NCBI GenBank assembly: GCA_018394295.1
Contig: CP074573.1
Location: forward strand, 2,651,684-2,715,683
Reading direction: 5' to 3'
DNA: 64,000 nt
Source: Mycoplasmatota bacterium
Lineage (GTDB): Bacteria; Bacillota_I; Bacilli_A; Haloplasmatales; Haloplasmataceae
In this document: one piece after another, positions 14,018-56,664 of the stretch
How positions within the stretch are numbered: the first letter of the stretch is position 1
How the letters are laid out: every line of letters starts with the position of its first letter
The notes under the pieces: model-generated
Databases searched by the model: none
Told to the model about the DNA's origin: nothing
The model's input: the letters and a program-made list of their open reading frames with translations, nothing else
Position numbers and translations under genes: made by a program

Positions 14018-14293
14018 TTACTTTTTAGTCTTATTAATATTTATAACATTAGACACAATTGTAATGCCACCAACAATTAAACACCCTATTCCAAATAAAT
14101 TTCGTTCTAACACTACTCCAATTGAACCGACAACAATAAGCCCAACACCTATACTATTTCCAATAACTGATCCAATGAAAGATACTTTCTTTGAAGGATG
14201 AATTAATTTTTCTACCGTGTCCATGGATTTACTCAAAGTATTTTGTGAAATATTTTTTGTTGCTTCAATTAGATTTTTATTGTATTTATTCAT
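14018..14293 (-). CDS. small hydrophobic/membrane protein (91 aa), hypothetical
   Basis: GGAGG RBS 8 nt upstream of the ATG. Gly/Ile-rich TM segments. Start codon 23 nt from the IS6-like left end. Confidence 0.35.
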   Translation of the reverse strand: MNKYNKNLIEATKNISQNTLSKSMDTVEKLIHPSKKVSFIGSVIGNSIGVGLIVVGSIGVVLERNLFGIGCLIVGGITIVSNVININKTKK

Positions 14294-14504
14294 ATTATCA
14301 CCTCCATATAGTAGTTGGTAGTGTAAAAGTTTTTCTTAAAACCAATACAAAACCTTATATATATATTATTTTTTATTATATAATGAGTTCCCCCCCTGTG
14401 TTTGGGAGGTTGCTCGTTATATTTTTTTAACCCTTTATATACAAAAAGATAGATACACCTGATATAATTTAATCACCACAAAAAAACTATAAGGAGTATC
14501 TATC

Positions 14505-14768
14505 ATGGTTAAAATTATATCAGTTCTTTCAGTATTTTTAAAGTATTTAAACAAACTACTTTATAAATTTATTCTTTTTCTAGATTCACACATTATTTCT
14601 ACACCTAGTTCTAAGTCATCTGGCACTTATTATGAACCTTTTAGGAAGTTCACTGTTGATGGTGAACCTATTATTCAGAAGGTTGAAAAGCTAGATTATC
14701 AAGAATTGCTTAATGTGTATTTTTTAAAGTACAATAAGCATCTCAAACCAGTTACTAGACGAATATAA
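14505..14768 (+). pseudogene. IS6-like transposase, N-terminal segment interrupted by IS21 insertion
   Basis: First 85 aa identical or near-identical to the intact-length copies at 55564 and 31229. The reading frame ends 2 codons after the IS21 junction. Confidence 0.8.
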
Positions 14769-14816
14769 ATGTCAAGATAATAATGTACATTTTTGATCAT
14801 TTAATAATGTACATTT

Positions 14817-15566
14817 TTAATTTTCTTCGATAAAGTAATTTTTAAGTCGATAAGATTTACCTGTAATGTTAACTACATGAGCATGATGAAGAACTCGATC
14901 AAGGATAGCGTTAGCTATTACAGGGTCTTTAAAAATATCATCCCAATTAGAAAAGTTAATGTTGGTTGTAATTATCGTACTTCGTTTTTCATATCGTCTA
15001 TCTATTAGCTGAAAGAACAATTTAGAATCTTCTTTGTCGATAGGTAAATAGCCTAGTTCATCAATAATCAATAATTTGTACTTGGTAAAATGCTTGAGTC
15101 TATCGTTTAAGCGATTTTCTAACTTAGCTTTCTTTAACTGGGCTATCAAATCATGACATTTTATAAAGTAAGTTGATATACGCTTCTTCGCAGCGGATAT
15201 ACCTATTGATGTAGATAAGTGGGTTTTACCAACACCACTCGTTCCCATAAAAACGATGTTCTCGCATTGATGGATGAATCGATGACTCTCAAAATCTAAT
15301 ATTTGTTCTTTGTTTATATTTTCTTGGAAAGAGAAGTCAAAATCCTTCAATTCTTTGTAATGGGGGAATGCCCCTACTTTAACCATAGCTTTGATCATAC
15401 TAGCCTCTTTATAATCAATTTCATATGTTGTTAATTTAATAAGCCCATCAACGAAAGATAGATTATTTTTATTAATAAAGTTAATAGTATCGTCTAAATG
15501 ATTTTTCATTTCTTTTAATTTTAAATATTCTAAATTTGCGATTAATTGCTCGTGTGCTGTTGTCAT
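14817..15566 (-). CDS. istB: IS21-family helper ATPase IstB
   Basis: GTSGVGKTHL Walker A, LLIIDELGYLP Walker B, RYEKRSTIITTN and ILDRVLHH motifs. Confidence 0.85.
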   Translation of the reverse strand: MTTAHEQLIANLEYLKLKEMKNHLDDTINFINKNNLSFVDGLIKLTTYEIDYKEASMIKAMVKVGAFPHYKELKDFDFSFQENINKEQILDFESHRFIHQCENIVFMGTSGVGKTHLSTSIGISAAKKRISTYFIKCHDLIAQLKKAKLENRLNDRLKHFTKYKLLIIDELGYLPIDKEDSKLFFQLIDRRYEKRSTIITTNINFSNWDDIFKDPVIANAILDRVLHHAHVVNITGKSYRLKNYFIEEN

Positions 15567-16866
15567 TATTTATAACGTTCTCCTATCTTATTAAGATTTT
15601 CTTTTGCGAATTTTTGAATATCTTCATCATCAAAAGATAGAGTCATTCTGGCAATCTGTATATAGTGCTCCTCTAAATAATTCAACTTTTTACTACTTAA
15701 CGAGTGTATTGTCACCAAATTTGTGTTAGAATATATGTGAATTTGATTATCATATACCTGCAGTTGAAGTGTACGGTTCATATATTTAGGTGGTACTGAA
15801 TATTGATTACCCTTATAACTAATCATTGATGATGAGTTTACTTTCGCTGTTATGGTTTTAATCAAGTATAGATTTCTTATCGTGTCTCGTGGAGGGGACT
15901 GTAAGAAATCTTTTTCATTTTGTAGGCCAAATAGTGGAATCATATCATAAGCTCTATGTAACCTACTGTTTTCTCTGTTGTTTATTTCTTGTACCTTTTT
16001 CACTAATTGTTCATAATTTAAATCACCACTATATGCTTTTAATTCATCTAAAATTTTCATAGGGGATTCAACCTTTGCTTTTGTATTTGGTCTGCCTGCG
16101 ATACAGGGTTTAACTTCAAATCCATAATCATTAGCGAATTGTTGAAATTTATTATTTACTTTTCCTTTTGAATATTCAGTTCTTGGTACATCCATTACTG
16201 TTTTCATATTATCAGTTAGTATTTCATGAGGTACACCACCAAATGCTTGAAATGCTTCGTCTATGAAGTTAAACAGTATGTCTTGAGATTTAGTTAATGA
16301 TAATCTATAAACTCTAAACCTTGAGTAACTCAGTAATAAAACGAATATATTGATTGTGATGACTTCTCCTGTATCAAGCACGAAATTCATTGATTCTTTC
16401 CAATCTAGCTGTGCTTGTTGACCTTTATCTGTTTCATAACGTATAACTGAAGGTGCTTTGATAGCACTTTTTTCTTTTGATCAAAGTACTCTTGAAATTC
16501 TGGTGTTTTACTTATATATCGCCTAAATGATGATTCAGCACATTTTAGTCCATAATTATCACTAAGATACTGCCAAAGCACTTTTTTATATTCAAAAACT
16601 TTTATTTTATCATTGAGTAAATCTTTAATTAAGTAGTAATAATCATCTACTATACTTGATCGTTTTCTATTTTTAGACTTCTCATAACCATTAATGTACT
16701 TACTTATCGTTCTTCTATCAACATTTAACTCTCTTGCTAATCGACTTTTATTTACCTTTAAGTTTGTTGTTTCCATTAAATTCTTTAATACCTTCAAATC
16801 ATTTAATTTCTGTATTTCTATATTAGTATCTATTTCATAGTTTAGTATCATAAGTTGTCCTCCCAT
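15566..16866 (-). pseudogene. istA: IS21-family transposase IstA with a single frameshift
   Basis: N-terminal HTH part (16405-16866) and DDE catalytic part (15566-16390) lie in different frames. The frameshift maps to an A/T homopolymer run near 16470-16480. Confidence 0.65.
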
Positions 16867-16952
16867 TGATTAACTATGAAATTATACTATATTAACTGTA
16901 CATTTTAAAGTGATCACTTCTGTACATATCTATCTTATCATTTATAGACGAA

Positions 16953-18121
16953 GGCCATCAAAACTTGATTTCAAAGGAAATTGCCCTATTTGTGGTGCTC
17001 CTCATGATTACATCTATGAAAATAATATTAAATCAAAACAGTTACTTTGTAAGGTATGTAGTCATACATTTACCTTGAATAATGATTTTCTTGAAAAGAT
17101 TATTTTAAAATGTCCTCATTGTTCAAAGAACCTTGAAAGAATTAAAGACCGTAATAGTTATATTATTTATAAATGTAGACATAAGAAATGTTCCTTTTAT
17201 TTAGATAAATTAAAGAAATTAACACCAGATCAATTAAAACAATTCAAAAAGAAACCAGGTAAATTTAAACTTCATTATATCTATCGTGCTTTCGATATTA
17301 ACTTTGATTCCCTAGAACGTGACTCTATGTCTAATTTAAATATGAAGGTTGATTTAGCCAATATCAGACATTCTAAGCATACTCTAGGCTTAATCTTAAC
17401 GTATTACGTTAACTACGGTTTGTCGAGTAGGAAAACTGCAGCTATCATGTATGATATTCACCAAGTTAAGATTTCCCATCAAACCGTGATGAATTATGCA
17501 AATAGTGTTTCTACAATGATTCGTCCCTTACTTGAAAATTACCCATATGATTTATCATCTGACCTTTGTGGGGATGAAACATATGTTAGGGTTAAGGGGA
17601 AGAAGCATTATATCTTCTTCTTCTCAGATAAAATTAAAAAGATTATTACTTCTTATCAAGTTTTTAGTAAACGTGATACTTTTTCAGCAGTCGTTTCACT
17701 ATATCAAACATTCAAAAAATACACTGAACTACCTAAGAATTTGAAAGTAGTTGTGGATGGTAATCCTATTTACAACGTTGCATGGTCATACTTTAAAAGC
17801 ATGAACATAAATTTCGATTTATTTCAAGTTATAGGACTCACTAATAACACGAAAACAGACAAGGATTACCGTCCATTTAAACAAGTAACTGAGCGTTTAA
17901 ATAGAACTTTCAAAGACGATTATATCCAAATGAACGGATTTGGTAATATCAAGAGCGCTAATGCTTATATGGTCTTGTTTACAACGTTTTTTAACTTTCT
18001 AAGACCACATAAATCGTTAGGTTATAACCCACCTGTTAAATTAGAAGAGTTTGAGGATTTACCTCATATGCCAAGCAAATGGCTTTCTCTAATAGATATG
18101 AGTTACTCTTATATAAACTAA
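16953..18121 (+). pseudogene. IS6-like transposase, C-terminal segment (resumes after IS21)
   Basis: Continues ...PSKLDFKGNCPICGAP (Zn-finger CxxC x2, CPHC) and the DDE region DETYVRVKGKKHY / VDGNPIY / RPHKSLGYNPP. Confidence 0.8.
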
Positions 18122-18431
18122 TTTTTAACTAAGGAGTATCTCTATATAAGCGTATTTAAATATGCCTTTTTTATTTGCATATAATGATATAGTAAGATAA
18201 AACTGAGTATTGTAATCTAACATACTACAATTCCAGTTTTTTTTATTTTGGGTCATAGAGTTATCATGAGTTTTCATAATTTATTTGACACTACCTAGTA
18301 GTTAAATATTAAAATAATTTTTAACCTTCTACCTCAGCTCTATCTTTTCTAACCATTACTAGTATTGTTGAATAAATCACTGACTATTTCATCTTACATA
18401 CAAACCGTTAGTATGTAAAAATGCAAAAATA

Positions 18432-19627: not shown

Positions 19628-20716
19628 TTAAGAAGATTTTGTTTCTTCTTTTTCCAAAATTGATGATTTTTCTGGGTTTAACCAAACAATGTTTTCCACA
19701 CTCCAATTTCTTATGTTTCTCGACCATCTTTCTGGGTGTTTAAGTTGTGCTTGTTCATAGACTTTAATTCGCTTTTTTAATATTTTATTAGATAAACCGG
19801 AATGCCTTTGGTGTGGAGTTAAATATTTTATCCCACTATGAAGATGTTCATAGTTATACCAGTTTATAAACTGTAATGTCCAAGTTCTTGCTTGTTTAAT
19901 AGTCTCAAAGCCCTTATCTGGGTAACCTGGACAATATTTGAATGTTTTAAATATAGACTCCGCATAAGGGTTATCATTACTTACTCTAGGTCTACTATTT
20001 GATGGAGTAATACCTAGTTGATAAAGGGTCTCTAAAAGAGTGGCTCCTTTCATCGGACTTCCATTGTCAGAATGAAGCACTAAAGGTTTTTTATGTAAAA
20101 GTATATTTTCTGCTAATACTGCTCTTTTAACTAATTCACTAGCGTGTTGAGCAGATTGTTCAGACCATATTTCCCATCCTACTACTTTTCTACTAAATAA
20201 ATCTAGGATCAAATATAAATAATAATATATCCCTTTTATTGGTCCTTTTAGATAAGTAATATCCCACATCCATACTTGATTAGGACCTGTGGCATAATGT
20301 GTTGATATAGGTCTATTTTGGGGTTTTTTAGTATTTCCTCTATGTTTTAGTTGTTTTTCTTCTCTTAAGATTCTATATATTGTTGATTCAGATGCTAAAT
20401 ATATTCCTTTATCAGCTAGGAGCGGCACAATTTCATTAGGAGATAAGTTTTTATATTCAGGCTGATTTACCACTTTTAAAATTTCTTCTCGTTCTTTTTT
20501 AGTTAATCTATTTTTGGGTACTTTTTTTTTACTAATAGGTCTTTGATCTTCATTTGGTGATGAATCACTTCTCCATCGTTGAAGTGTTCGTAAACTAATT
20601 CCTATTTCTTCACATGCTTTTTCTTGTCTTGCTCCATTATCTACAGCTTCTCTTATCAGTGATATTGCTTTTTTGCGATCTGTGGCACTGATTAATCTTC
20701 CTCGTCTTCCCCCCAA
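19628..20716 (-). CDS. IS3-family transposase OrfB (integrase core, DDE)
   Basis: rve-domain motifs (WMWDITY, HSDNGSPM, ES..TFK, YNYEHLHSGIKYLTP). Confidence 0.8.
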   Translation of the reverse strand: MGGRRGRLISATDRKKAISLIREAVDNGARQEKACEEIGISLRTLQRWRSDSSPNEDQRPISKKKVPKNRLTKKEREEILKVVNQPEYKNLSPNEIVPLLADKGIYLASESTIYRILREEKQLKHRGNTKKPQNRPISTHYATGPNQVWMWDITYLKGPIKGIYYYLYLILDLFSRKVVGWEIWSEQSAQHASELVKRAVLAENILLHKKPLVLHSDNGSPMKGATLLETLYQLGITPSNSRPRVSNDNPYAESIFKTFKYCPGYPDKGFETIKQARTWTLQFINWYNYEHLHSGIKYLTPHQRHSGLSNKILKKRIKVYEQAQLKHPERWSRNIRNWSVENIVWLNPEKSSILEKEETKSS

Positions 20717-21190: not shown

Positions 21191-21485
21191 AAAGTTGTTC
21201 TCCTTACTAAGTTATTAAATTTTATTTCAAGACAACTAGTTGTCTTGAAATAACTTACTATGTCTACTATACTATTTTTAGAGCTCCATGACAACTATTC
21301 TAACACAGAGGGTAAACGCTATACTAAATTTTGTATCCAATGTTTCACTATCTATATCACTTACTATATTCTAAAGATCAAATGTTATTATAGTATTTTC
21401 ATAAGTCATTAAGTGTGTATGATGTGCAATTGGTGCATCATTACTAACAACAGATAATTATAATATATAATGGATTTTATATATT

Positions 21486-22004
21486 TTACAAATTCAGTTT
21501 ATTACACCATGCTTTTACTTCTTTATGTCCATTTAAAATAATAACTTGTTTACCTAACTTTTCTGCTTCATTAAATAGTAATTGACGCTCGATTTTCTTC
21601 TTTGGATATCCAGATAATACATATTTCACAACTTCCATATTATATTCTTCGTAACATCCCTCGGAAAGTTCCGGACGTGCATCATATTTATGTTTAAAAT
21701 ATCTTCTCAGTCCTCTAAATAAGTATATAAATCGATTTATATTTATATATATTATAGTGTCACAATTTTCGAATCTACCGTCTTTCTTTGATGCACTGAA
21801 TTTGTTTCCATCAAATATCCATTTATCTTTTTCTGATAACTCCTTAATTATATCAATCTGTTCTTTCTCTGATCGCTCTTGCCAGTTTTCCTTCCAGGTA
21901 ATACTGTCTCTATGATATACAGAAATATTAAATTTGTTTTCAAGCTTATTTGCTAAGGTAGTTTTCCCAGAACCAGACGAACCAGTTATCCATATCCTTT
22001 GCAT
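21486..22004 (-). CDS. small P-loop NTPase/kinase (AAA_33/topology-modulation-protein-like)
   Basis: ITGSSGSGKTT Walker A. 172 aa. ~80% identical paralog at 26267-26785. Confidence 0.6.
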   Translation of the reverse strand: MQRIWITGSSGSGKTTLANKLENKFNISVYHRDSITWKENWQERSEKEQIDIIKELSEKDKWIFDGNKFSASKKDGRFENCDTIIYININRFIYLFRGLRRYFKHKYDARPELSEGCYEEYNMEVVKYVLSGYPKKKIERQLLFNEAEKLGKQVIILNGHKEVKAWCNKLNL

Positions 22005-22074
22005 TACGACCTCCTACAAATATTGACTGTGATTATAATATCAATTATAATTGACATTACTATTTACTTAATTA

Positions 22075-22108
22075 TATCAAAAAGATACTGAGTTAACAGT
22101 ACCTTTTG
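22075..22108. repeat. dispersed 35-bp palindromic repeat, copy 2
   Basis: TATCAAAAAGATACTGAGTTAACAGTACCTTTTG, between the NTF2-like fragment and the kinase gene. Confidence 0.6.
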
Positions 22109-22193
22109 TTTATTATAATTATATTTAAACAATAAAATAATTTATTATTAGAGGTTTCTGTTTAATTATGGAATCCTATCTAAAAGTTTATAT

Positions 22194-22433
22194 TTATTCA
22201 TCTTGCCATAACATATTTGAAATCTTCCAACCACTTCCATCATTTAATAAATGGATTAAGTTTACACCTCTTTTTATAATTTCTTCATGTTCTTTAGACT
22301 TTTTCGCTTCATACTTACTATAAACATTAGCTATATTCTTATAAGTTTTAATCTCATAGTTTAATCCATATTCATAAAAATTATGCTCTCTAAGGAAATT
22401 TCTAACCTTTAAAATATATTGATTAACATCCAT
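22194..22433 (-). pseudogene. N-terminally truncated NTF2/SnoaL-like protein (paralog of 27002-27409)
   Basis: 79 aa, ~90% identical to the C-terminal 79 aa of the 135-aa paralog. The 5' part is deleted. Confidence 0.55.
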
Positions 22434-22640
22434 TTGTAATAGTTTACCTATATGGATCCATCGAATTCTGCAAAATAATTAATTCTGTTCCTAAAGAATC
22501 TGCTATTTTCTTATTTATCTTTACAAACCATTTACCAAATTCACTTCCAACCATTACCACAGCATATTATATTTTTTATCAGCTGATTTTTTCATATTTT
22601 TTCAAGCACTAATATGAGAAAATAAGATCACTTAAATAAC
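22434..22640 (-). pseudogene. remnants of alpha/beta-hydrolase gene and downstream sequence (deleted copy of 27560-28860)
   Basis: ~110 bp nearly identical to part of the hydrolase gene at 27570-27680, followed by ~80 bp matching 28760-28850. Internal deletions. Confidence 0.5.
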
Positions 22641-25822: not shown

Positions 25823-26266
25823 TCCCTTAAGGAGATTTTCATTAGGTAAATTAGTTTCTATATTATAATTCTTTAACTTAGTTGCATTTTTTGTTCTTCT
25901 TTAATTTTTGTCAAATCGGTAAATATACCTAAATATTTATCAACTTTACTGTTAGATTTATTTTTCATCACGTATATGAACAGTTTTTTGGGATACAACA
26001 TACCATCTTTTTTTCTGTCCCACAACTCTCCCTTCCAAATGTAATGCATAAAGTAAACAACTGTTGTTTCTGAACTTAATCCAAATTTTTTTTCATCTAA
26101 TTGGCTTCCTATAAGCATTTTCAGTAGTGCCTATTCAACAAGTTGTCTTTCTTCAAATTTCATAGCGCAACTCCCTTTAATAGGTTTATTTTATACTCTA
26201 TAAGATTTCTTTAATAATCAATAAGTATCTTTGTAAAAGTATACTTAATATTGGCTCTTATAATAT

Positions 26267-26785
26267 TTATAAATTCAGTTTATTACACCATGCTCTTACT
26301 TCTTTACGTCCATTCAATATAATTACTTCTTTCCCTAACTTTCTAGCTTCATTAAATAGTAATTGTCGCTCATATTTCTTTTTTGGATAGCCAAATAATA
26401 CATATTTTATTGCTTCCATATTATATTCTTCATAACATCCTTCTGAAAATTCAGGTCTTGTATGATGTCTATGTTTTAAATATCTTCTTACTCCTCTATA
26501 TAAACATAAAAATCGATTTATATTTATATGTATTATCATGTCACAATTATCAAATCTACCATCATTCTTTGAAGCACTGAATTTATTACCATCAAATATC
26601 CATTTATCTTTTTCTGATATCTCTTTTATTATTTCAATCTGTTCTTTCTCTGAACGCTCTTGCCAATTTTCCTTCCAGGTAATTCTGTCTCTATGATATA
26701 CAGGAATATTTAATTTGTTTCCAAGTTTATTCGCGATAGTAGTTTTCCCTGAACCAGACGAACCTGTTATCCATATCCTATACAT
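26267..26785 (-). CDS. small P-loop NTPase/kinase (paralog of 21486-22004)
   Basis: ITGSSGSGKTT Walker A. 172 aa. Confidence 0.6.
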   Translation of the reverse strand: MYRIWITGSSGSGKTTIANKLGNKLNIPVYHRDRITWKENWQERSEKEQIEIIKEISEKDKWIFDGNKFSASKNDGRFDNCDMIIHININRFLCLYRGVRRYLKHRHHTRPEFSEGCYEEYNMEAIKYVLFGYPKKKYERQLLFNEARKLGKEVIILNGRKEVRAWCNKLNL

Positions 26786-26865
26786 TTACGATCTCCTACA
26801 TATATTATTTTTTTGACTGTGATTTGATACTAATAATAAATGAATTTACTATTTACTTAATTATA

Positions 26866-26900
26866 TCTAAAAAGATACTGAATTAACAGTACCTTTTGTT
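26866..26900. repeat. dispersed 35-bp palindromic repeat, copy 3
   Basis: TATCTAAAAAGATACTGAATTAACAGTACCTTTTG. Confidence 0.6.
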
Positions 26901-27001
26901 ATTAATATTTCTTTTTAAACAATATAATAATTAGTAATAAAAAGATTAATAATTTCAGTTTAATGGAAACCTCGCTATCTTTACAATATCTAAATAAATT
27001 T

Positions 27002-27409
27002 TTATTCATCTTGCCATAACATATTTGAAATCTTCCAACCACTTCCGTCATTAAATAAATGGATTAAGTTTACACCTCTTTTTATAATTTCTTCATGTTC
27101 TTTAGACTTTTTCGCTTCATACATACTATAAACATTAGCTATATTCTTATAAGTTTTAATCTCATAGTTTAATCCATATTCATAAAAATCATGCTCTTTA
27201 AGGAAATTGTTAACCTTTAAAATATATTGATTTACATCAATTTGTAATGACAAAACTTCATTTTCTTCATTTATTATTATTGGTTTTATTATTGCGTCTT
27301 TTGTAAATAGATTTTTAAAATAAACCCAATCCCGTTTTTCATTAGATTTTCCTGAAATTATCCTGTAAAACTCATTTATAACTTTTGTTATCCTCTGTTT
27401 TTCTGACAA
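27002..27409 (-). CDS. NTF2/SnoaL-like small protein (135 aa)
   Basis: Intact ORF. Paralog of the truncated 22194-22433 copy. Confidence 0.45.
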   Translation of the reverse strand: MSEKQRITKVINEFYRIISGKSNEKRDWVYFKNLFTKDAIIKPIIINEENEVLSLQIDVNQYILKVNNFLKEHDFYEYGLNYEIKTYKNIANVYSMYEAKKSKEHEEIIKRGVNLIHLFNDGSGWKISNMLWQDE

Positions 27410-27511
27410 TTAAATCCCTCCATTTTATAAATTTCACCCTCTGTGTAACCATTTCTGATAATCGTATACTTCAGGTTTCTTATTGTTTTCCCATAAAATT
27501 TCTTCTAATAT

Positions 27512-28297
27512 TTATTCATCGAGAAATTCAAGTACATTTTTATTAAATTCATCTGGATTTACTAAATTAGATGGATCCATCGAATTCTGTAAAATAATTA
27601 AATCTGTTCCTAAAGAATCTGCTATTTTCTTATTTATCTTTACAAACCATTTACCAAATTCACTTCCAACCATTACCATAGCATTAAATTTATGGTTGTT
27701 TAATTCATCTAAAATAGCTATCTGATTAATCGCCTTTCTTGACAAAACCATTTGTTTCAGATCAACCTCTAGGCAGATTTCCTTAAAATATTTTTTAGCT
27801 CTATAAGCAAAATCAGCTTTGTAAGTAGACTCCATTCCTTTTGCTAATGCTTTGTTCCCTAAAATTTTAAATAATTTATATCCTATTACCGATGAAAAAC
27901 CAAGTATTCTTTCAGGGATTGTTTTTAACTCTCCAAAACTATCAGAAATTATTATTTTATCTACTAAATCAGGATAGTTTACAATAAATGATAAAGCTAT
28001 TACTCCTCCCATACTCACACCGATTATAGATACTTTATGTATATTTAAATGTATTAGTAATTCCTCTATTTGTTTTGTCCAATCAGAGAGTGTTAATTTA
28101 TTAACCCTTGAAGATTTTCCATGTGCAATCATATCAGGAACAATAATATGATATCCTTTTGAAGCATACAATTCTGTTTGAGGTCTCCACATTTGATTGT
28201 CTGCACCTATTCCATGAATTAAAAGTATAGTAGGATCGCATTTTTCCCCATACTCCTCATAATATGTTCTTAAACCCTTTTGATTTTCAAATATCAT
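27512..28297 (-). CDS. alpha/beta-fold hydrolase
   Basis: HG oxyanion motif (LLIHGIGAD), nucleophile elbow GVSMGG, C-terminal His region. Confidence 0.8.
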   Translation of the reverse strand: MIFENQKGLRTYYEEYGEKCDPTILLIHGIGADNQMWRPQTELYASKGYHIIVPDMIAHGKSSRVNKLTLSDWTKQIEELLIHLNIHKVSIIGVSMGGVIALSFIVNYPDLVDKIIISDSFGELKTIPERILGFSSVIGYKLFKILGNKALAKGMESTYKADFAYRAKKYFKEICLEVDLKQMVLSRKAINQIAILDELNNHKFNAMVMVGSEFGKWFVKINKKIADSLGTDLIILQNSMDPSNLVNPDEFNKNVLEFLDE

Positions 28298-29627: not shown

Positions 29628-31418
29628 GGTAGTGTCAAATAAATTATGAAAACTCATAATAACTCTATGACCCAAAATAAAAAAAACTGGAATTGTAGTA
29701 TGTTAGATTACAATACTCAGTTTTATCTTACTATATCATTATATGCAAATAAAAAAGGCATATTTAAATACGCTTATATAGAGATACTCCTTAGTTAAAA
29801 ATTAGTTTATATAAGAGTAACTCATATCTATTAGAGAAAGCCATTTGCTTGGCATATGGGGTAAATCCTCAAACTCTTCTAATTTAACAGGTGGGTTATA
29901 ACCTAACGATTTATGTGGTCTTAGGAAGTTAAAAAACGTTGTAAATAAGACCATATAAGTGTTAGCACTCTTGATGTTACCAAAGCCGTTCATTTGGATA
30001 TAATCGTCTTTGAAAGTTCTATTTAACCGCTCAGTTACTTGTTTAAATGGACGATAATCCTTGTCTGTTTCCGTGTTATTAGTGAGTCCTATAACTTGAA
30101 ATAAATCGAAATTTATGTTCATGCTTTTAAAGTATGATCATGCAGCGTTGTAAATAGGGTTACCATCCACAACTATTTTCAAATTCTTAGGTAGTTCAGT
30201 GTATTTTTTGAATGTTTGATATAGTGAAACAACTGCAGAAAAAGTATCACGTTTACTAAAAACTTGATAAGAAGTAATAATCTTTTTAATTTTATCTGAG
30301 AAGAAGAAGATATAATGCTTCTTCCCCTTAACCCTAACATATGTTTCATCCCCACAAAGGTCAGATGATAAATCATATGGGTAATTTTCAAGTAAGGGAC
30401 GAATCATTGTAGAAACACTATTTGCATAATTCATCACGGTTTGATGGGAAATCTTAACTTGGTGAATATCATACATGATAGCTGCAGTTTTCCTACTCGA
30501 CAAACCGTAGTTAACGTAATACGTTAAGATTAAGCCTAGAGTATGCTTAGAGTGTCTGATATTGGCTAAATCAACCTTCATATTTAAATTAGACATAGAG
30601 TCACGTTCTAGTGAATCAAAGTTAATATCGAAAGCACGATAGATATAATGAAGTTTAAATTTACCTGGTTTTTTTTTATATTGTTTTAATTGATCAAATG
30701 ATAATTTCTTTAATTTATCTAAATAAAAGGAACATTTCTTATGTCTGCATTTATAAATAATATAACTATTACGGTCTTTAATTCTTTCAAGGTTCTTTGA
30801 ACAATGAGGACATTTTAAAATAATCTTTTCAAGAAAATCATTATTCAAGGTAAATGTATGACTACATACCTTACAAAGTAATTGTTTTGATTTAATATTA
30901 TTTTCATAGATATATTTATGAGGAGCACCACAAATAGGGCAATTTCCTTTAAAATCAAGTTTTGATGGATTTCTTCTAGAAACAGGTTTTAATTGCTTAT
31001 TGTGCTTTAAAAAATACTCATTAAGCAATTCTTGATAATCTAGCTTTTCAATCTTTTGAATAATAGGTTCACCATCAACAGTGAACTTCCTAAAAGGTTC
31101 ATAATAAGTGCCAGATGACTTAGAACTAGGTGTAGAAATAATGTAGGAATCTAGAAAAAGAATAAATTTATAAAGTAGTTTGTTTAAAGACTTTAAAAAT
31201 ACTGAAAGAACTGATATAATTTTAACCATGATAGATACCCCCTGTATGGTTGGTTGTGGTGACTTAATTATATCAGGGGTATCTATCTTTTTGTATATAA
31301 AGGGTTAAAAAAATATAACGAGAAACCTCCCAAACACAGGGGGGGAACTCATTATATAATAAAAAATAATATATATATAAGGTTTTGTATAGGGTTTAAG
31401 AAAAACTTTTACACTGCC
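29628..31418 (-). mobile_element. IS6/IS26-like insertion sequence copy B (inverted relative to copy A)
   Basis: IRs GGCAGTGTAAAAG / GGTAGTGTCAAAT. Perfect 8-bp TSD TATAAAAA (29620-29627 and 31419-31426). ~1.79 kb. Confidence 0.8.
29802..31229 (-). pseudogene. IS6-like transposase with internal nonsense mutation (TGG to TGA at the ...NPIYNAAW codon)
   Basis: Two ORFs (30138-31229 and 29802-30122) in the same frame, separated by a single stop where the other copies encode Trp. Confidence 0.75.
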
Positions 31419-31441
31419 TATAAAAATAAGGGAGTGGGATA

Positions 31442-32560
31442 ATGAAATATATTATCAAAAGTAATGAAGTTGGTTTACTATTTAAGAAACAAGTATTTAA
31501 AAAAGTATTAACAGTAGGTGAATATACTTATGTTTTAAAATCCAGAAAAGTTATAATAGTAAATAAGAAAATAGCACTTGAAAATAATGGAATTGAGGTT
31601 AAAACATTAGCTAATAATAAAGTGTTACTTAACAAGATTACATCCATTCAAGTTAAAGAAAATGAAGTTGCATTTCACTTCATTGATGGACTTTTCTTTG
31701 AATTATTAACGGCAGGTACTTATTCTTTTTTCAACGATACATACGCACACACTTTCACAATTGTTGATACAAAAGATATTTATATTCCGGACTCGATTGA
31801 TATAAGTGTATTAGAATCACTAATATATCATGATAATTATCGTAAAATAATATGTTCATATGTAGTTGAAGAAGGATTTATTGGAATATTAAAAGTAAAC
31901 GGTAAGTTTGGAAAATTATTAGGTCCTGGAAAATATTATTTCTTTACGAATATCAATGTTATTAATGTTAAATATATTGATACTAGAAATCAAGTATTAC
32001 AAATCAGTGGTCAAGAATTACTAACAAAAGATAAAGTAACATTAAGAATGAATTTTGTATTATCATATAAAATTACAGATAGCCTAAAAGCCGCAACCAC
32101 ATTAGATCATTATGAAGAACAACTCTATCTATTTATGCAACTGGCTCTAAGAGAATATGTATCCACAAAGACACTTGATGAATTATTAGCTGAAAAACAT
32201 GAAATAGGCAAAATTATTTTAGATACAGTTAAACCAAAAGAAAATGACTTTGGAGCTATATTTATGGAAGCTGGTCTTAAAGATATTATTTTACCTGGAG
32301 AAATAAAAGATATCCTTAATACAATACTACTCGCTGAAAAGAAAGCTCAAGCCAATGTGATTACTAGACGTGAAGAAACAGCATCAACACGAAGCCTATT
32401 AAATACCGCAAAAATTATGGACGAAAATGAAACACTATATAAACTAAAAGAATTAGAATATCTAGAAAGAATATGTGATAAAGTCGGGAATATCTCATTT
32501 TCTTCAAGTGGTGGAATTATAGAACAATTAAATGAACTGATTAAAGTTTCTAAAAAATAA
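31442..32560 (+). CDS. SPFH/band-7 (stomatin/prohibitin-like) domain protein
   Basis: Central region (NFVLSYKITD...LALREYVSTKTLDELLAEKHEIG) matches the SPFH fold pattern, followed by a C-terminal coiled coil. Start codon 23 nt from the IS6-like copy B left end. Confidence 0.5.
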   Translation: MKYIIKSNEVGLLFKKQVFKKVLTVGEYTYVLKSRKVIIVNKKIALENNGIEVKTLANNKVLLNKITSIQVKENEVAFHFIDGLFFELLTAGTYSFFNDTYAHTFTIVDTKDIYIPDSIDISVLESLIYHDNYRKIICSYVVEEGFIGILKVNGKFGKLLGPGKYYFFTNINVINVKYIDTRNQVLQISGQELLTKDKVTLRMNFVLSYKITDSLKAATTLDHYEEQLYLFMQLALREYVSTKTLDELLAEKHEIGKIILDTVKPKENDFGAIFMEAGLKDIILPGEIKDILNTILLAEKKAQANVITRREETASTRSLLNTAKIMDENETLYKLKELEYLERICDKVGNISFSSSGGIIEQLNELIKVSKK

Positions 32561-54386: not shown

Positions 54387-55355
54387 TTATATCTCTAACA
54401 TCAATTTACCCATTATGCTCCAATCATATATGCCCGTTACTTGAACTGCTTTCTTTCCATTATGAGTTTTAAAAGATAGCTTAATAGGAAATGACATCAA
54501 TAGAAATTCATGATTACCTAATGGTATTAGTTTTATATTTTTAAAGAAAAAAACCTCACAGTATATATTCTCTTTGGATTCATCTAATTTAATTTTTAGC
54601 TCATGCTGCCTATCATCAATTGTAACAGAATATCTTCCACAATATTGTTGCAGAAATTCAGGTACTATCACCTTTTCATAATTATACTCTAACCCCAAAT
54701 ATTCCATTAAATCCTTCATATATTTTTCCCATAATTCATTTGAGGTGTTTATCTTAATTTTATTACCTTGGTAACGCCTGAACATAGTATCGGCAATTTC
54801 TTGGTAATTTTCCCACATATTATAAACACTATCATCGCCTTTATATTCATGCTCATTAAAATAGCCTTCTCCTTCTGCATTGAGAATAATATTTTTCCAT
54901 CTTTCTCCACGAACTTCAAATGCCGTTCTAAAGGAATCTCTTAATTCTGAACGATATAAAAATACTATAGTTGGATTAAGTTTTGAGATTATTTCCATAA
55001 CTGTATCATAAAACTTAGTTATTTTTTCTATTGAATAATTACAGTTAAAGAAATAACGTATTATATTCTGATATAGACATCCTTCCATTATAAATACATC
55101 ATCAGATTTCTCTATGTCGTCAGCTAATTTTCCCCATAAACTGTACATATATGAAACATTTTTATCCATATCTTCTTCAGAATCTATACTTGCAATACTA
55201 AACTCTTTGTCTCGTATAGGATGAGCTTTAATTTCTTCATGTAACCATCGATGTTTAATCCCATTTTGTTCATATTGATATGCTAACTTCTGTGAAGTAG
55301 TAGATTTACCAGCTCCACTTATCCCTGTGACAATAATTAATTTAGAATCTTTCAT
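54387..55355 (-). CDS. P-loop NTPase/kinase-like protein (322 aa), hypothetical
   Basis: Walker A GISGAGKST. Start codon 22 nt from the IS6-like copy C left end. Confidence 0.5.
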   Translation of the reverse strand: MKDSKLIIVTGISGAGKSTTSQKLAYQYEQNGIKHRWLHEEIKAHPIRDKEFSIASIDSEEDMDKNVSYMYSLWGKLADDIEKSDDVFIMEGCLYQNIIRYFFNCNYSIEKITKFYDTVMEIISKLNPTIVFLYRSELRDSFRTAFEVRGERWKNIILNAEGEGYFNEHEYKGDDSVYNMWENYQEIADTMFRRYQGNKIKINTSNELWEKYMKDLMEYLGLEYNYEKVIVPEFLQQYCGRYSVTIDDRQHELKIKLDESKENIYCEVFFFKNIKLIPLGNHEFLLMSFPIKLSFKTHNGKKAVQVTGIYDWSIMGKLMLEI

Positions 55356-55377
55356 ATCTTCTCCCCCATTAGATTTT

Positions 55378-56664
55378 TGGTAGTGTAAAAGTTTTTCTTA
55401 AAACCAATACAAAACCTTATATATATTTTGTTTTTATTCTATAATGAGAATCCCCCCCTGTATTTTGGAGGAGCTCGTTATATTTTTTTATCATATAAAT
55501 ACAAAAAGATAGATACCCCTGATATAATTAAGTCACCACAACCAACCATACAGGGGGTATCTATCATGGTTAAAATTATATCAGTTCTTTCAGTATTTTT
55601 AAAGTATTTAAACAAACTACTTTATAAATTTATTCTTTTTCTAGATTCGCACATTATTTCTACACATAGTTCTAAGTCATCTGGCACTTATTATGAACCT
55701 TTTAGGAAGTTCACTGTTGATGGTGAACCTATTATTCAGAAGGTTGAAAAGCTAGATTATCAAGAATTGTTTAATGTGTATTTTTTAAAGTACAATAAGC
55801 AATTAAAACCTGTTTCTAGAAGAAATCCATCAAAACTTGATTTCAAAGGAAATTGCCCTATTTGTGGTGCTCCTCATGATTACATATATGAAAATAATAT
55901 TAAATCAAAACAGTTACTTTGTAAGGTATGTAGTCATACATTTACCTTGAATAATGATTTTCTTGAAAAGATTATTTTAAAATGTCCTCATTGTTCAAAG
56001 AACCTTGAAAGAATTAAAGACCGTAATAGTTATATTATTTATAAATGTAGACATAAGAATTGTTCCTTCTATTTAGATAAATTAAAGAAATTAACACCAG
56101 ATCAATTAAAACAATTCAAAAAGAAACCAGGTAAATTTAAACTTCATTATATTTATCGTGCTTTCGATATTTACTTTGATTCCCTAGAACGTGACTCTAT
56201 ATCAAATTTAAATATGAAGGTTGATTTAGCCAATATCAGACATTCTAAGCATACTCTAGGCTTAATCTTAACGTATTACGTTAACTACGGTTTGTCGAGT
56301 AGGAAAACTGCAGCTATCATGTATGATATTCACCAAGTTAAGATTTCCCATCAAACCGTGATGAATTATGCAAAGAGTGTTTCTACAATGATTCGTCCCT
56401 TACTTGAAAATTACCCATATGATTTATCATCTGACCTTTGTGGGGATGAAACATATGTTAGGGTTAAGGGGAAGAAGCATTATATCTTCTTCTCAGATAA
56501 AATTAAAAAGATTATTACTTCTTATCAAGTTTTTAGTAAACGTGATACTTTTTCTGCAGTTGTTTCACTATATCAAACATTCAAAAAATACACTGAACTA
56601 CCTAAGAATTTGAAAGTAGTTGTGGATGGTAATCCTATTTACAACGCTGCATGGTCATACTTAT
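55378..56664 (+). mobile_element. IS6/IS26-like insertion sequence copy C, truncated at the right end
   Basis: Left IR GGTAGTGTAAAAG and left arm conserved. Similarity to the other copies stops at ~56664, inside the transposase gene. No right IR or TSD. Confidence 0.75.
55564..56664 (+). pseudogene. IS6-like transposase, 3'-truncated (ends after ...NPIYNAAWSY then unrelated sequence)
   Basis: Near-identical to copies A and B up to the truncation point. The annotated ORF 55428-56708 runs into flanking DNA. Confidence 0.75.

What the first reader, a model, noticed from the sequence alone, without database searches (positions are those of the whole stretch)
14291..14330. All three IS6-like left ends lie 22-23 nt upstream of outward-facing start codons, just 5' of the Shine-Dalgarno sequence
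Copy A: IS end at 14317, minus-strand gene start at 14293 (23 nt). Copy B: IS end at 31418, plus-strand SPFH gene start at 31442 (23 nt). Copy C: IS end at 55378, minus-strand P-loop gene start at 55355 (22 nt).

The three downstream genes and their flanks are unrelated (RBS contexts ggaggtg, gggagtg, gggggag). The shared feature is therefore the position, not the sequence. In each case the 8-bp AT-rich target lies immediately 5' of the SD, so the native promoter of each gene has been displaced and replaced by the IS left arm.

Two explanations seem possible. One is target preference for AT-rich 5'-UTR DNA next to ribosome-binding sites. The other is selection for insertions that supply an outward-reading promoter (the IS end contains TTTACA, a -35-like hexamer facing outward).
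Basis: seen in the sequence. Interest (0 to 1): 0.6.

Follow-up and report, generated by a model that had tools for sequence, protein, structure and literature searches.

The report
Insertion sequence that targets ribosome-binding sites
A zinc-finger-bearing branch of the IS6 family of jumping genes inserts, always in the same orientation, a fixed 11-13 bases upstream of a gene's ribosome-binding site (exactly 23 bases before the start codon here). It therefore cuts genes off from their promoters without breaking them, a target choice that the papers searched here do not describe at this level of detail.

Summary
With the copy C boundary corrected (55379, not 55378), all three IS left ends lie exactly 23 nt from an outward-facing ATG. 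Copies A and B have perfect 8-bp target duplications.

The rule holds across relatives. I collected 43 independent left junctions from relatives with 23-100% transposase identity, in Bacillota and Mycoplasmatota genomes, plasmids and metagenomes. All 43 have a purine-only, G-rich Shine-Dalgarno-like run at a fixed offset from the left tip. Right flanks lack it, and so do 26 ends of IS1216, a classical IS6 member without a zinc finger.

- **Long-transposase clade (this IS):** the start codon follows at 22-24 nt in 34 of 36 junctions.
- **ISCpe7/ISCbo1 clade:** the G-run is fixed at positions 14-18, while the ATG floats at 25-27 nt or is absent.

Insertions also occur inside operons and at pseudo-sites with no gene, so this is sequence-directed targeting rather than survivorship alone.

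A conserved antisense promoter candidate at the tnp start codon could instead drive the neighbouring gene.

Prior literature only notes that ISCbo1 sits "directly upstream a gene". I rate this a new variant of a known kind, with moderately high interest.

The parts
14317..18295 (+). IS copy A. It is an IS6-family element of the long-transposase clade, about 1.79 kb without the insert, and is interrupted by an IS21-like element at 14764-16944.
   Evidence: Repeats, sequence, reconstructed 476-aa transposase. Pfam DDE_Tnp_IS240 scores 45.7 bits against a cut-off of 27.
14317..14329 (+). Left terminal inverted repeat (IRL) tip of copy A, GGTAGTGTAAAAG. Read outward it contains TTTACA, 5 nt from the tip.
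   Evidence: It matches the right-end reverse complement GGTAGTGTCAAA.
14309..14316 (.). Left copy of the 8-bp target duplication of copy A, TAGTAGTT. The right copy is at 18296-18303.
14299..14305 (-). Shine-Dalgarno-like run GGAGGTG of the 91-aa gene, at flank positions 12-18 from the tip.
14018..14293 (-). 91-aa gene, with its ATG at 14293-14291, 23 nt from the IS tip.
   Evidence: No Pfam or NCBIfam hit.
29628..31418 (-). IS copy B, 1791 bp, with a frameshifted transposase gene. Its target duplication TTTTTATA (IS orientation) lies at 31419-31426 and 29620-29627.
31430..31436 (+). Shine-Dalgarno-like run GGGAGTG of the SPFH gene, at flank positions 12-18.
31442..32560 (+). SPFH/Band 7 gene, with its ATG 23 nt from the IS tip.
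   Evidence: Pfam Band_7, E = 4.7e-26.
55379..56662 (+). IS copy C, 3'-truncated.
55361..55367 (-). Shine-Dalgarno-like run GGGGGAG of the P-loop gene, at flank positions 12-18.
54387..55355 (-). P-loop NTPase/kinase-like gene, with its ATG 23 nt from the IS tip.
   Evidence: Pfam AAA_18 and NCBIfam PRK06761-like hits.
14514..14542 (-). Candidate outward (antisense) promoter, TTTAAA-17-TATAAT with a TG extension. Its -10 ends 9 nt inside the transposase ORF. An identical copy lies at 55575-55603 (-).
   Evidence: It sits at the same place in 11 of 13 elements of this clade.
31192..31220 (+). The same candidate outward promoter in copy B, reading toward the SPFH gene.
14390..14396 (+). Internal C7 run, 74-80 nt from the left tip. 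The same run lies at 31339-31345 (-) in copy B and 55452-55458 (+) in copy C. It has the same strand sense as the CCYCC of the target.
   Evidence: A C-rich run (C4-C7) starts 73-83 nt from the tip in 13 of 20 elements across both clades.
14448..14504 (+). Long-range inverted repeat, GATAGATAC (14448-14456) with GTATCTATC (14496-14504). It brackets the transposase -10 (TGATATAAT, 14460-14468) and occludes the transposase SD-ATG spacer in read-through RNA.
   Evidence: fold, z = -3.56. The arms co-vary in relatives.

Best explanation
The element is a member of the long-transposase, zinc-finger-bearing branch of the IS6 family: clade VIII of Harmer & Hall 2019, clade i of Varani 2021. This branch and the related ISCpe7/ISCbo1 branch (clade VII/h) have a sequence-directed, orientation-specific choice of target.

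The transpososome captures DNA so that a polypurine, G-rich Shine-Dalgarno-like tract lies a fixed 3-5 bp beyond the 8-bp staggered cut, on the side that joins the left end (IRL). In clade VIII/i a start codon 22-23 nt from the tip is also part of the preferred site. The IS therefore lands between a gene's promoter (or the preceding gene of an operon) and its intact ribosome-binding site, with the transposase gene pointing away from the target gene.

- **Shown:** the positions, the target duplications, the motif, the strict sidedness, its presence in both zinc-finger clades, and its absence in IS1216.
- **Inferred, reader of the G-run:** the N-terminal zinc-ribbon module, which is the domain shared by the two targeting clades and missing from classical IS6 transposases, reads the G-run.
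- **Inferred, reader of the start codon:** the extra ~90-aa N-terminal domain of clade VIII/i adds the start-codon constraint.
- **Inferred, internal C-run:** a conserved internal copy of the same C-rich motif, starting 73-83 nt from the left tip, is a second binding site for that module.
- **Inferred, transcription of the target gene:** the displaced gene is transcribed from a conserved antisense promoter at the transposase start codon (analogous to pOUT of IS10) or by read-through.
- **Inferred, role of selection:** purifying selection removes the minority of insertions at intragenic G-runs.
For: 1. Window: three of three copies lie at exactly 23 nt, and two have perfect target duplications.

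2. Relatives: 43 independent left junctions.
- L002.
- P0007 IS, 2 sites.
- Amphibacillus xylanus prophage.
- Plasmids of Geobacillus, Pediococcus, Levilactobacillus and Clostridium estertheticum, 7 sites.
- P0105 IS, 7 sites, and Anaerosalibacter, 4 sites.
- P0034, P0018 and P0017 ISs, 11 sites.
- ISCpe7/ISCbo1-like elements, 7 sites, all with perfect duplications.

3. Motif: in the 18 sites of this clade tabulated, flank positions 12-16 carry no pyrimidine in any of 90 cells. The 18 other sites of this clade also read as purines there. In clade h, G14, G15 and G17 are invariant and position 16 is always a purine.

4. Sidedness: at the equivalent positions of the right flank, 1 of 23 carries a purine motif and 3 of 23 a pyrimidine motif.

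5. Control: 0 of 12 IRL and 0 of 14 IRR flanks of IS1216 carry the motif.

6. The 5-mer alone does not explain the pattern. Only 13% of RGRRG occurrences in the window precede a predicted start.

7. Function is not required. L142 has ATG followed directly by TGA, L144 and L146 have no start codon, and L150 has a 20-codon ORF. L140 sits between purN and purH and L148 sits inside a two-gene operon.

8. Anchoring differs by clade.
- Clade h: the tip-to-SD register is 16 in 6 of 7 sites, while the ATG lies at 25-27 nt or is absent.
- Clade i: the tip-to-ATG distance is identical in 25 of 29 sites, plus 7 of 7 for the P0105 IS, while the SD register spreads over positions 13-19.

9. Internal C-rich run: it starts 73-83 nt from the tip in 13 of 20 elements, although its distance to the transposase ATG ranges from 24 to about 280 nt.

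10. Candidate outward promoter: it sits at the same place in 11 of 13 elements of this clade, and no terminator-like site lies between it and the tip in copies A and B.
Against: - No de novo transposition data exist. Every junction is a survivor in a genome, so the relative weights of targeting and selection are unmeasured.
- Which protein domain reads the motif rests only on the correlation between domain content and behaviour. An AlphaFold model of residues 1-225 (pLDDT 82) found no informative structural neighbour.
- Two of 36 junctions of this clade have the ATG at 26 or 30 nt (L113, L129), and two have it at 24 nt.
- The outward promoter lies in coding sequence (the conserved Ile-Ile-Ser and Ile-Lys codons), so its conservation may reflect the protein. 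No such promoter passed my criteria in three clade-h elements.
- The internal C-run also sits in a hairpin followed by U7 in this IS, so it could instead be part of a terminator that blocks read-through.
- Some metagenome contigs are chimeric at their right ends, although the left junctions themselves are read directly.
- The other copies in the source genome could not be reached.
Confidence: 0.75

Rival explanations
1. Survivorship only. The IS inserts more or less at random, and only copies that leave the SD and ORF intact and supply a promoter persist.
For: No junction among the 43 lies inside a coding region, although 87% of RGRRG motifs in the window are not upstream of a start. All three window copies are old (95.6-96.5% identical to each other) and defective, so they have been filtered for a long time. 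The target genes have intact ORFs.
Against: - Selection would tolerate any position between the promoter and the SD, yet 25 of 29 sites, 7 of 7 sites for the P0105 IS and 6 of 7 clade-h sites share one exact offset.
- Insertions occur at G-runs that start no real gene (L142, L144, L146, L150).
- IS1216, in hosts of the same phylum (Bacillota), shows no such pattern.
- The motif is strictly on the left (IRL) side.
Confidence: 0.08
2. The insertions are selected because the TTTACA (TTGACA in relatives) hexamer in the IS tip forms a hybrid promoter with a -10 in the flank, as in IS26 and IS257.
For: The tip does carry a -35-like hexamer reading outward: TTTACA here and TTGACA in most relatives. 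Hybrid promoters are described as a general property of the IS6 family (PMC7986276).
Against: The hexamer ends 5 nt from the tip. A 16-18 nt spacer therefore places the -10 at flank positions 12-19, which are purine-only and G-rich in all 43 junctions. A transcript starting just downstream would also lack the SD. The promoter scan reports no such site.
Confidence: 0.03
3. Nucleic-acid-guided targeting. The conserved internal C-run, or its G-run complement in the outward transcript, pairs with the polypurine-polypyrimidine SD tract of the target through G:C and G.T pairs or a triplex, and so guides the transposase. This would resemble the bridge RNAs of IS110.
For: - A C-rich run (C4-C7) starts 73-83 nt from the tip in 13 of 20 elements of both clades, whatever the arm length.
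- The target requirement is 'purines only, G preferred', which is what a G-run pairing with C or T would give.
- The left non-coding arm is long for an IS6 element, at 100-363 nt.
- The left arm folds better than shuffled sequence (z = -3.56).
Against: - There is no covariation between the internal run of an element and its targets. Each element hits both GGAGG-type and GGGGG-type sites.
- In the Geobacillus group the run lies in the spacer of the predicted transposase promoter, so it may not be transcribed inward.
- No Rfam family matches.
- IS6-family DDE transposases have no known RNA cofactor (own knowledge).
- Five to seven base pairs is a weak guide.
Confidence: 0.06
4. Pseudo-end capture. 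The transposase treats the SD (GGAGGTG, GGGAGTG) as a degenerate copy of its own tip (GGTAGTG) and inserts next to it, by analogy with the preference of IS26 for another IS26 end.
For: The tips GGTAGTG/GGCAGTG and the window targets GGAGGTG/GGGAGTG share the pattern GG..G.G. The right end carries a conserved ATGAAAA 17-18 nt inside the tip, so the right end itself resembles an SD-spacer-ATG region.
Against: - Many targets are plain G-runs with no resemblance to the tip (GGGGGGG, GGGGG).
- Clade h tips (CGATCTGTTAAG) do not resemble its targets.
- The spacing differs: tip to ATG inside the right end is 17-18 nt, against 5-8 nt from SD to ATG in targets.
- The insertion lies 11-13 bp from the run, not at it.
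Confidence: 0.05

Closest known systems
IS6 family clade VIII (Harmer & Hall 2019) = clade i (Varani et al. 2021): ISTet2, ISHahy6, ISHco2
   Same: - Size of about 1.7-1.8 kb, with a single transposase of about 450-480 aa.
- The transposase has a DDE_Tnp_IS240 core, an H-HTH, N-terminal CxxC zinc ribbons and a further ~90-100-aa N-terminal extension.
- 8-bp target duplications.
- Tips of the form GG...TGT...AAA.

Sources.
   Different: Neither review reports any target preference for these clades. Harmer & Hall state that they found no experimental data for the longer bacterial ISs. The SD/start-codon targeting, the internal C-run and the antisense promoter candidate are not described there.
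ISCbo1 / ISCpe7 (IS6 clade VII/h)
   Same: These elements have a zinc-finger-bearing transposase of about 340 aa and 8-bp duplications. In my sample they sit with the left end 13 nt from a G-run in 7 of 7 cases. Skarin et al. 2011 (PMC3098183) already noted that ISCbo1 copies were 'in most cases located directly upstream a gene'.
   Different: That paper gives only duplications and positions. It does not mention the SD, the offset or the orientation. In this clade the ATG distance floats (25-27 nt, or no ATG), unlike the window's clade.
TnGBS / ISLre2 / ISKra4 (prokaryotic Mutator-like DDE transposases)
   Same: [quoted passage not shown] Orientation is set by asymmetry between the two ends, and the specificity correlates with a signature in the transposase (PMC3942029). 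This is the nearest functional analogue.
   Different: The transposase superfamily is unrelated. The signal recognised is the promoter, not the ribosome-binding site. Those elements leave promoter and gene together, whereas this IS separates them.
IS26 / IS257 / IS6100 hybrid promoters
   Same: The tip architecture is homologous, with an outward -35-like hexamer about 5 nt from the tip.
   Different: Here the position where a -10 would sit is always a G-run, so no hybrid promoter can form. Classical members, represented by IS1216, show no flank motif.
IS10 pOUT / RNA-OUT
   Same: There is a candidate promoter inside the start of the transposase gene, reading outward and antisense across the transposase ribosome-binding site. 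A stem that occludes the transposase SD-ATG in read-through RNA recalls the protection against read-through in IS10 and IS50 (own knowledge of IS10).
   Different: This is untested. The transcript here would have to run 190-360 nt out of the element into the neighbouring gene, and the element belongs to a different family.

Membership tests
IS6 family | DDE transposase of the IS240/IS26 type | tested here: met
   Pfam DDE_Tnp_IS240 scores 45.7 bits against a gathering cut-off of 27. However, the NCBIfam IS6 equivalog scores 69 bits, below its cut-off of 125, so this is a distant member.
IS6 family | 8-bp target site duplication | tested here: met
   Copy A has TAGTAGTT and copy B has TTTTTATA. 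Perfect 8-bp duplications are seen in more than 20 relatives.
IS6 family | Short terminal inverted repeats starting with GG and carrying the cTGTt...caaa motif | tested here: met
   The termini are GGTAGTGTAAAAG and GGTAGTGTCAAAT. The consensus is described in PMC7986276.
IS6 family | Transposition exclusively through cointegrates (copy-in or targeted conservative) | not testable with these tools
   This needs a transposition assay. The simple insertions with duplications seen here are compatible with resolved cointegrates.
IS6 clade VIII / clade i | IS of about 1.7-1.8 kb, with a transposase of about 450-480 aa that has a zinc finger plus a further N-terminal extension | tested here: met
   Copy B is 1791 bp and the reconstructed transposase is 476 aa. 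Invariant cysteines C97, C100, C119, C122, C140, C143, C161 and C166 appear in 52 homologues. The model shows helix 2-34 followed by zinc ribbons.
IS26/IS257-type hybrid promoter | An outward -35 hexamer in the IS tip | tested here: met
   TTTACA lies 5 nt from the tip here, and TTGACA in most relatives.
IS26/IS257-type hybrid promoter | A -10-like hexamer in the flank, 16-18 nt from the tip's -35 | tested here: not met
   Flank positions 12-19 are a purine-only G-run in all 43 junctions. The promoter scan finds none.
TnGBS/ISLre2 promoter-targeting elements | Mutator-like (p-MULT) transposase | tested here: not met
   The Pfam and NCBIfam hits are to IS6/IS240 and rve_3 only.
TnGBS/ISLre2 promoter-targeting elements | [quoted passage not shown] | tested here: met
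   All 43 junctions show this, but the signal is the SD/start codon, not the -35. The IS works like these elements without being a member.
IS110-type RNA-guided elements | A structured non-coding guide RNA whose loops co-vary with the target | tested here: not met
   There is no Rfam hit. The internal C-run does not co-vary with the composition of the target G-run. The transposase is a DDE enzyme, not DEDD.
IS10-like antisense (pOUT) control | A promoter inside the 5' end of the transposase gene reading outward across its ribosome-binding site | tested here: inconclusive
   There is a 10/12 match with a TG extension at 14542..14514, 31192..31220 and 55603..55575. It sits at the same place in 11 of 13 elements. 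No transcript data are available, and the conservation is confounded by coding constraint.

The most novel reading that the evidence does not exclude
The conserved internal C/G-run, which starts 73-83 nt from the left tip in most elements, may not be a protein-binding site. It may instead act as a nucleic-acid guide. As RNA from the outward promoter, or as an exposed DNA strand, it would pair with the polypurine-polypyrimidine SD tract of the target through G:C and G.T pairs or a triplex. If so, a DDE transposase of the IS6 family would find ribosome-binding sites much as 16S rRNA does.
Probability: 0.06. Interest if true: 0.9.

Novelty: new variant of a known kind. Interest (0 to 1): 0.7.

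Why it matters
If the targeting is confirmed, several things follow.

- **A second expression-signal-targeting class.** It would be, after TnGBS/ISLre2 and promoters, a second class of DDE elements that home to a gene-expression signal. As far as the searched literature shows, it would be the first that reads the ribosome-binding site and start codon as DNA.
- **A low-cost insertion strategy.** The strategy almost never disrupts an ORF, yet it rewires transcription by uncoupling genes from their promoters or operons. This is relevant to genome evolution in IS-rich Bacillota and Mycoplasmatota, and to plasmid-borne genes in Clostridium, Geobacillus and lactobacilli.
- **A testable domain assignment.** It assigns a testable function to the zinc-finger and N-terminal extensions that the IS6 reviews list as of unknown role.
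- **An annotation aid.** A junction of this clade marks a true start codon 22-24 nt from the tip in 34 of 36 cases.
- **A possible tool.** The system could be a starting point for promoter-swap or knock-down mutagenesis aimed at translation start sites.

Tried and rejected
- **Metagenome scan.** An exact scan of metagenome contigs for the 18-nt left tip gave 107 hits, all by chance. None shares further similarity with the IS.
- **Genome scan.** The genome-contig scan gave only three loci. Two are collapsed IS-only contigs. The ends of L003 (Enterococcus camelliae) could not be defined.
- **Source genome.** The source genome ('Mycoplasmatota bacterium', KHQ81_ locus tags) holds at least five more intact copies, but the look-up of encoding contigs has none of them on record.
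- **Excluded junction.** L125 (L. plantarum plasmid) was left out because its left terminus is degenerate and cannot be aligned.
- **Structure.** An AlphaFold model of residues 1-225 is confident (pLDDT 82), but Foldseek against the PDB found nothing below E = 1. It gave no clue to how DNA is read.
- **RNA families.** Rfam has no match in the left arm.
- **Pseudo-end idea.** I compared the target with the right and left ends by eye. The spacing and the sequence do not match (see rival explanations).
- **Literature.** Searches for SD/RBS targeting by IS elements, and for ISTet2, ISHahy6, ISCpe7 and ISCbo1, found only the qualitative remark on ISCbo1.
Full report
**1. What is in the window**

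Repeat finding and direct reading define three copies of one insertion sequence.

- **Copy A** spans 14317-18295 on the + strand. An IS21-family element interrupts it at 14764-16944, with its own 8-bp duplication TAGACGAA.
- **Copy B** spans 29628-31418 on the - strand. It is 1791 bp and its transposase gene is frameshifted.
- **Copy C** starts at 55379 on the + strand and is cut off near 56662.

The copies are 95.6-96.5% identical to each other. Removing the IS21 insert gives a 476-aa transposase.

- It passes Pfam's threshold for DDE_Tnp_IS240 (45.7 bits against a cut-off of 27).
- It falls below NCBIfam's IS6 equivalog cut-off (69 bits against 125).
- It carries eight invariant cysteines in two zinc ribbons, behind a further ~90-aa N-terminal segment.
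- The termini are GGTAGTGTAAAAG and GGTAGTGTCAAAT, and the target duplications are 8 bp.

This places the element in the long-transposase group of the IS6 family. That group is clade VIII of Harmer & Hall 2019 (ISTet2, ISHahy6, ISHco2) and clade i of Varani et al. 2021. The source genome is a 3.2-Mb 'Mycoplasmatota bacterium' with KHQ81_ locus tags.

**2. The observation**

With that correction, exactly 23 nt separate the tip from the A of an outward-pointing ATG in all three copies. Read outward from the tip, the flanks are:

| Copy | 8-bp target | Next 15 nt | Start |
|---|---|---|---|
| A | AACTACTA | TATGGAGGTGATAAT | ATG |
| B | TATAAAAA | TAAGGGAGTGGGATA | ATG |
| C | AAAAATCT | AATGGGGGAGAAGAT | ATG |

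The first 8 nt are the target duplication, verified at the right ends of copies A and B. The three genes are unrelated:

- a 91-aa protein with no family match;
- an SPFH/Band 7 protein;
- a P-loop kinase-like protein.

The window has about 71 predicted starts in 128,000 position-by-orientation slots. Two further copies sharing the offset and orientation of the first has a chance probability of about 3e-7.

**3. Does it hold elsewhere?**

I collected every related element whose left flank was available.

| Source | Transposase identity to the query | Left junctions | Tip-to-start distance |
|---|---|---|---|
| Haloplasmataceae MAG (L002) | 85% | 1 | 23 nt |
| P0007 IS (metagenomes) | 60% | 2 | 23 nt; 26 nt (gene caller chose an ATG at 20 nt) |
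| Amphibacillus xylanus prophage | 48% | 1 | 23 nt, duplication verified |
| Plasmids of Geobacillus, Pediococcus, Levilactobacillus, C. estertheticum | 42-47% | 7 | 23, 23, 23, 23, 24, 24, 30 nt |
| P0105 IS | 49% | 7 | 22 nt in all |
| Anaerosalibacter chromosome | 51% | 4 | 23 nt in all, four perfect duplications |
| P0034, P0018, P0017 ISs | 49-51% | 6, 2, 3 | 23 nt in all |

With the window's three copies, this gives 36 independent junctions for this clade:

- 25 at 23 nt;
- 7 at 22 nt;
- 2 at 24 nt;
- 1 at 26 nt;
- 1 at 30 nt.

One locus (L125) was left out because its left terminus is degenerate.

I then sampled the neighbouring zinc-finger clade (ISCpe7 and ISCbo1-like elements, 340-aa transposase, 23-27% identity) from Clostridium plasmids.

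- All seven junctions have perfect 8-bp duplications.
- All seven have a G-run at flank positions 14-18.
- Five have an ATG 25-27 nt from the tip.
- Two (L144, L146) have no start codon there at all; the next annotated gene start lies about 90 and 270 nt from the IS tip.

**4. What is constant**

- **Motif in clade i.** In the 18 sites of this clade tabulated, flank positions 12-16 read R-G-R-R-G with no pyrimidine in 90 cells. The 18 other sites of this clade also read as purines there.
- **Motif in clade h.** G14, G15 and G17 are invariant, and position 16 is always A or G.
- **Sidedness.** The equivalent positions beyond the right end carry no such motif: 1 of 23 purine and 3 of 23 pyrimidine.
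- **Control.** IS1216, a classical IS6 member without a zinc finger, shows nothing comparable in two Enterococcus plasmids. None of 12 left-end and 14 right-end flanks has the motif.
- **Anchoring in clade h.** Aligning each flank to the anti-SD complement gives a tip-to-SD register of 16 in 6 of 7 sites, while the ATG moves.
- **Anchoring in clade i.** Here it is the reverse. The tip-to-ATG distance is identical in 25 of 29 sites, plus 7 of 7 for the P0105 IS, while the SD register spreads over positions 13-19.

So the G-run is obligatory in both clades. In the clade with the extra N-terminal domain, the start codon (often ATGAA) is an additional preferred element.

**5. Targeting or survivorship?**

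Several observations argue for sequence-directed targeting.

- The precision is to a single base.
- The IS occurs at sites that start no real gene. L142 has ATG followed directly by TGA, L150 has a 20-codon ORF, and L144 and L146 have no start codon.
- It occurs inside operons. L140 sits between the purN stop and the purH SD, and L148 sits between two thrE-like genes.
- The pattern is absent in IS1216.

Selection probably also acts. In the window, only 13% of RGRRG motifs with at least three G lie 10-15 nt before a predicted start. Yet 39 of 43 junctions are at annotated or plausible gene starts, and none is intragenic. Either the recognised site is larger than the 5-mer, as the start-codon constraint suggests, or intragenic insertions are purged, or both.

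**6. The promoter idea**

The tip hexamer (TTTACA here, TTGACA in most relatives) ends 5 nt from the tip. A 17-nt spacer therefore puts the -10 on flank positions 13-18, which is the G-run. No hybrid promoter of the IS26/IS257 type can form, and the scan finds none.

The scan does find one outward-reading site with a 10/12 match and a TG extension. It is TTTAAA-17-TATAAT, at 14542..14514, 31192..31220 and 55603..55575.

- Its -10 ends 9 nt inside the transposase ORF.
- A promoter-like site sits at the same place in 11 of 13 elements of this clade, in two sequence forms: TGATATAAT, and AATAAT paired with TTGAT(T/G).
- A transcript from it would start at about the transposase ATG. It would run antisense over the transposase SD, cross the left arm, and leave the tip 12 nt before the SD of the target gene. 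No terminator-like site was found on that path.
- It is therefore a candidate for both antisense control of the transposase and expression of the displaced gene.
- It is untested, and it is confounded by coding constraint.

For copy A, a weak promoter-like site (TTTACA-17-TAAGAT, 18419..18391) preceded by a terminator-like hairpin lies on the far side of the IS. This is consistent with a displaced native promoter.

**7. Other anatomy of the left arm**

- **Read-through block.** A 9-bp inverted repeat (14448-14456 with 14496-14504) pairs sequence upstream of the transposase -10 (TGATATAAT, 14460-14468) with the transposase SD-ATG spacer. Its arms co-vary in relatives: GGTAATAG/CTATTACC, GGATGACAA/TTGTCATCC and GATAGATG/CATCTATC. 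This fits a block on translation of read-through transcripts, as in IS10 and IS50 (own knowledge).
- **Internal C-rich run.** A run of four to seven C's starts 73-83 nt from the left tip in 13 of 20 elements of both clades. It starts at 89-90 nt in two more, and three others carry a CCCTCCC, CCTCCC or CACCCG variant near that position. Its distance to the transposase ATG, by contrast, ranges from 24 to about 280 nt.
  - It is C-rich on the same strand as the target's CCYCC.
  - I read it as a second site for the module that reads the target.
  - In this IS it also lies in a hairpin followed by U7, so a role as a terminator is a fair alternative.
  - A guide role is not excluded, but the lack of covariation with the targets argues against it.

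**8. Mechanism proposed**

*Shown:* oriented insertion at a fixed offset from an SD-like polypurine tract, found in both zinc-finger clades and only in them.

*Inferred:*
- The zinc-ribbon module reads the tract.
- The extra N-terminal domain of clade i adds the start-codon constraint.
- The asymmetry of the two ends sets the orientation. One asymmetry is the internal C-run near the left end. Another is the conserved ATGAAAA 17-18 nt inside the right end.
- The neighbouring gene is then transcribed from the outward promoter or by read-through.

An AlphaFold model of residues 1-225 (pLDDT 82) shows a long helix (2-34) and two zinc ribbons. It has no informative neighbour in the PDB.

**9. Comparison with what is known**

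- The element is a member of IS6 clade VIII/i (see the membership table).
- The two IS6 reviews report no target preference for the long clades. Harmer & Hall note that they found no experimental data for them.
- Skarin et al. [quoted passage not shown] They did not mention the SD, the offset or the orientation.
- A large survey found a 'normal' distribution of neighbouring-gene orientations for the IS6 family as a whole.
- The nearest functional analogue is TnGBS/ISLre2/ISKra4, which insert 15-17 bp upstream of sigma-A -35 boxes in a fixed orientation. Those elements use an unrelated transposase and a different signal.

**10. Verdict**

I rate it a new variant of a known kind: a described IS clade with a target specificity that the library searched here does not describe.

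The main limits are these:
- All junctions are survivors in genomes, not de novo insertions.
- The domain assignments are correlative.
- The outward promoter is only a consensus match.

Noticed in passing
window 14764-16944 (- strand genes 14817-15566, 15566-16390, 16405-16866): An IS21-family element of 2181 bp is inserted inside the transposase gene of IS copy A, flanked by an 8-bp duplication TAGACGAA (14756-14763 and 16945-16952). The istB gene is intact (IstB_IS21, E = 1e-72). The istA gene is split into 153-aa and 274-aa ORFs.
   Followed up: partly
window 14448-14456 / 14496-14504 (and the same positions in copies B and C): A 9-bp inverted repeat brackets the transposase -10 and ends at the transposase ATG. 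Its arms co-vary across relatives with 49-60% transposase identity. It is probably a block on translation of read-through transcripts.
   Followed up: partly
window 14390-14396, 31339-31345, 55452-55458; relatives L111, L121, L122, L124, L129, L130, L140, L146-L148 and the P0017, P0018 and P0034 ISs: A C-rich run lies at a near-constant 73-83 nt from the left tip in both zinc-finger clades, whatever the length of the left arm (100-363 nt). Its function is unexplained. It could be an accessory binding site, part of a terminator hairpin, or a guide.
   Followed up: partly
window 18275-18277 (ATG on the - strand, 18 nt inside the right tip); right ends of all relatives: The motif TTTTCAT (ATGAAAA when read inward) is conserved 17-18 nt inside the right tip in both clades. 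In this IS it opens a 50-aa ORF (18125-18277, - strand). In a relative (L111) the ORF stops after 3 codons, so the motif is more likely a DNA site than a gene.
   Followed up: partly
window 56662 onward: Copy C loses similarity to the other copies at about 56662, in mid-transposase, with no right end in the window. The sequence beyond it carries an unrelated 126-aa ORF on the - strand with no Pfam hit. This indicates a deletion or rearrangement at the IS.
   Followed up: no
window 19628-20716 (-): There is another transposase gene here (rve integrase core with HTH, of IS481 or IS3 type). Together with three IS6-like copies and one IS21-like element, the 64-kb window is unusually rich in insertion sequences.
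   Followed up: no
window 21456-22565 and 26237-27684: Repeat families (83-96% identity, about 4.8-5.1 kb apart) include two paralogous 172-aa P-loop kinase-like genes (21486-22004 and 26267-26785, - strand). This is a local duplication of a small gene block.
   Followed up: no
L131 and L133 (metagenome contigs carrying the P0105 IS): Two junctions share the 19 nt next to the IS tip (CTATTAAAGAGGAGGAAAT) but diverge beyond it into different genes. This could be paralogous ribosome-binding regions, carry-over of flank DNA by the IS, or an assembly artefact.
   Followed up: no
L132 versus L130: These show the same insertion site (upstream of an Amidase_3 gene) in two samples, differing by one extra G at the junction between tip and flank. 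The spacing is 23 nt in one and 22 nt in the other.
   Followed up: no
L001 (Inordinaticella fortuita 4B, NSKI01000062.1): This is a 1788-bp contig at about 193x coverage that runs exactly from IS tip to IS tip. It is a collapsed multicopy IS (87% transposase identity), which suggests that this genome also carries many copies.
   Followed up: no
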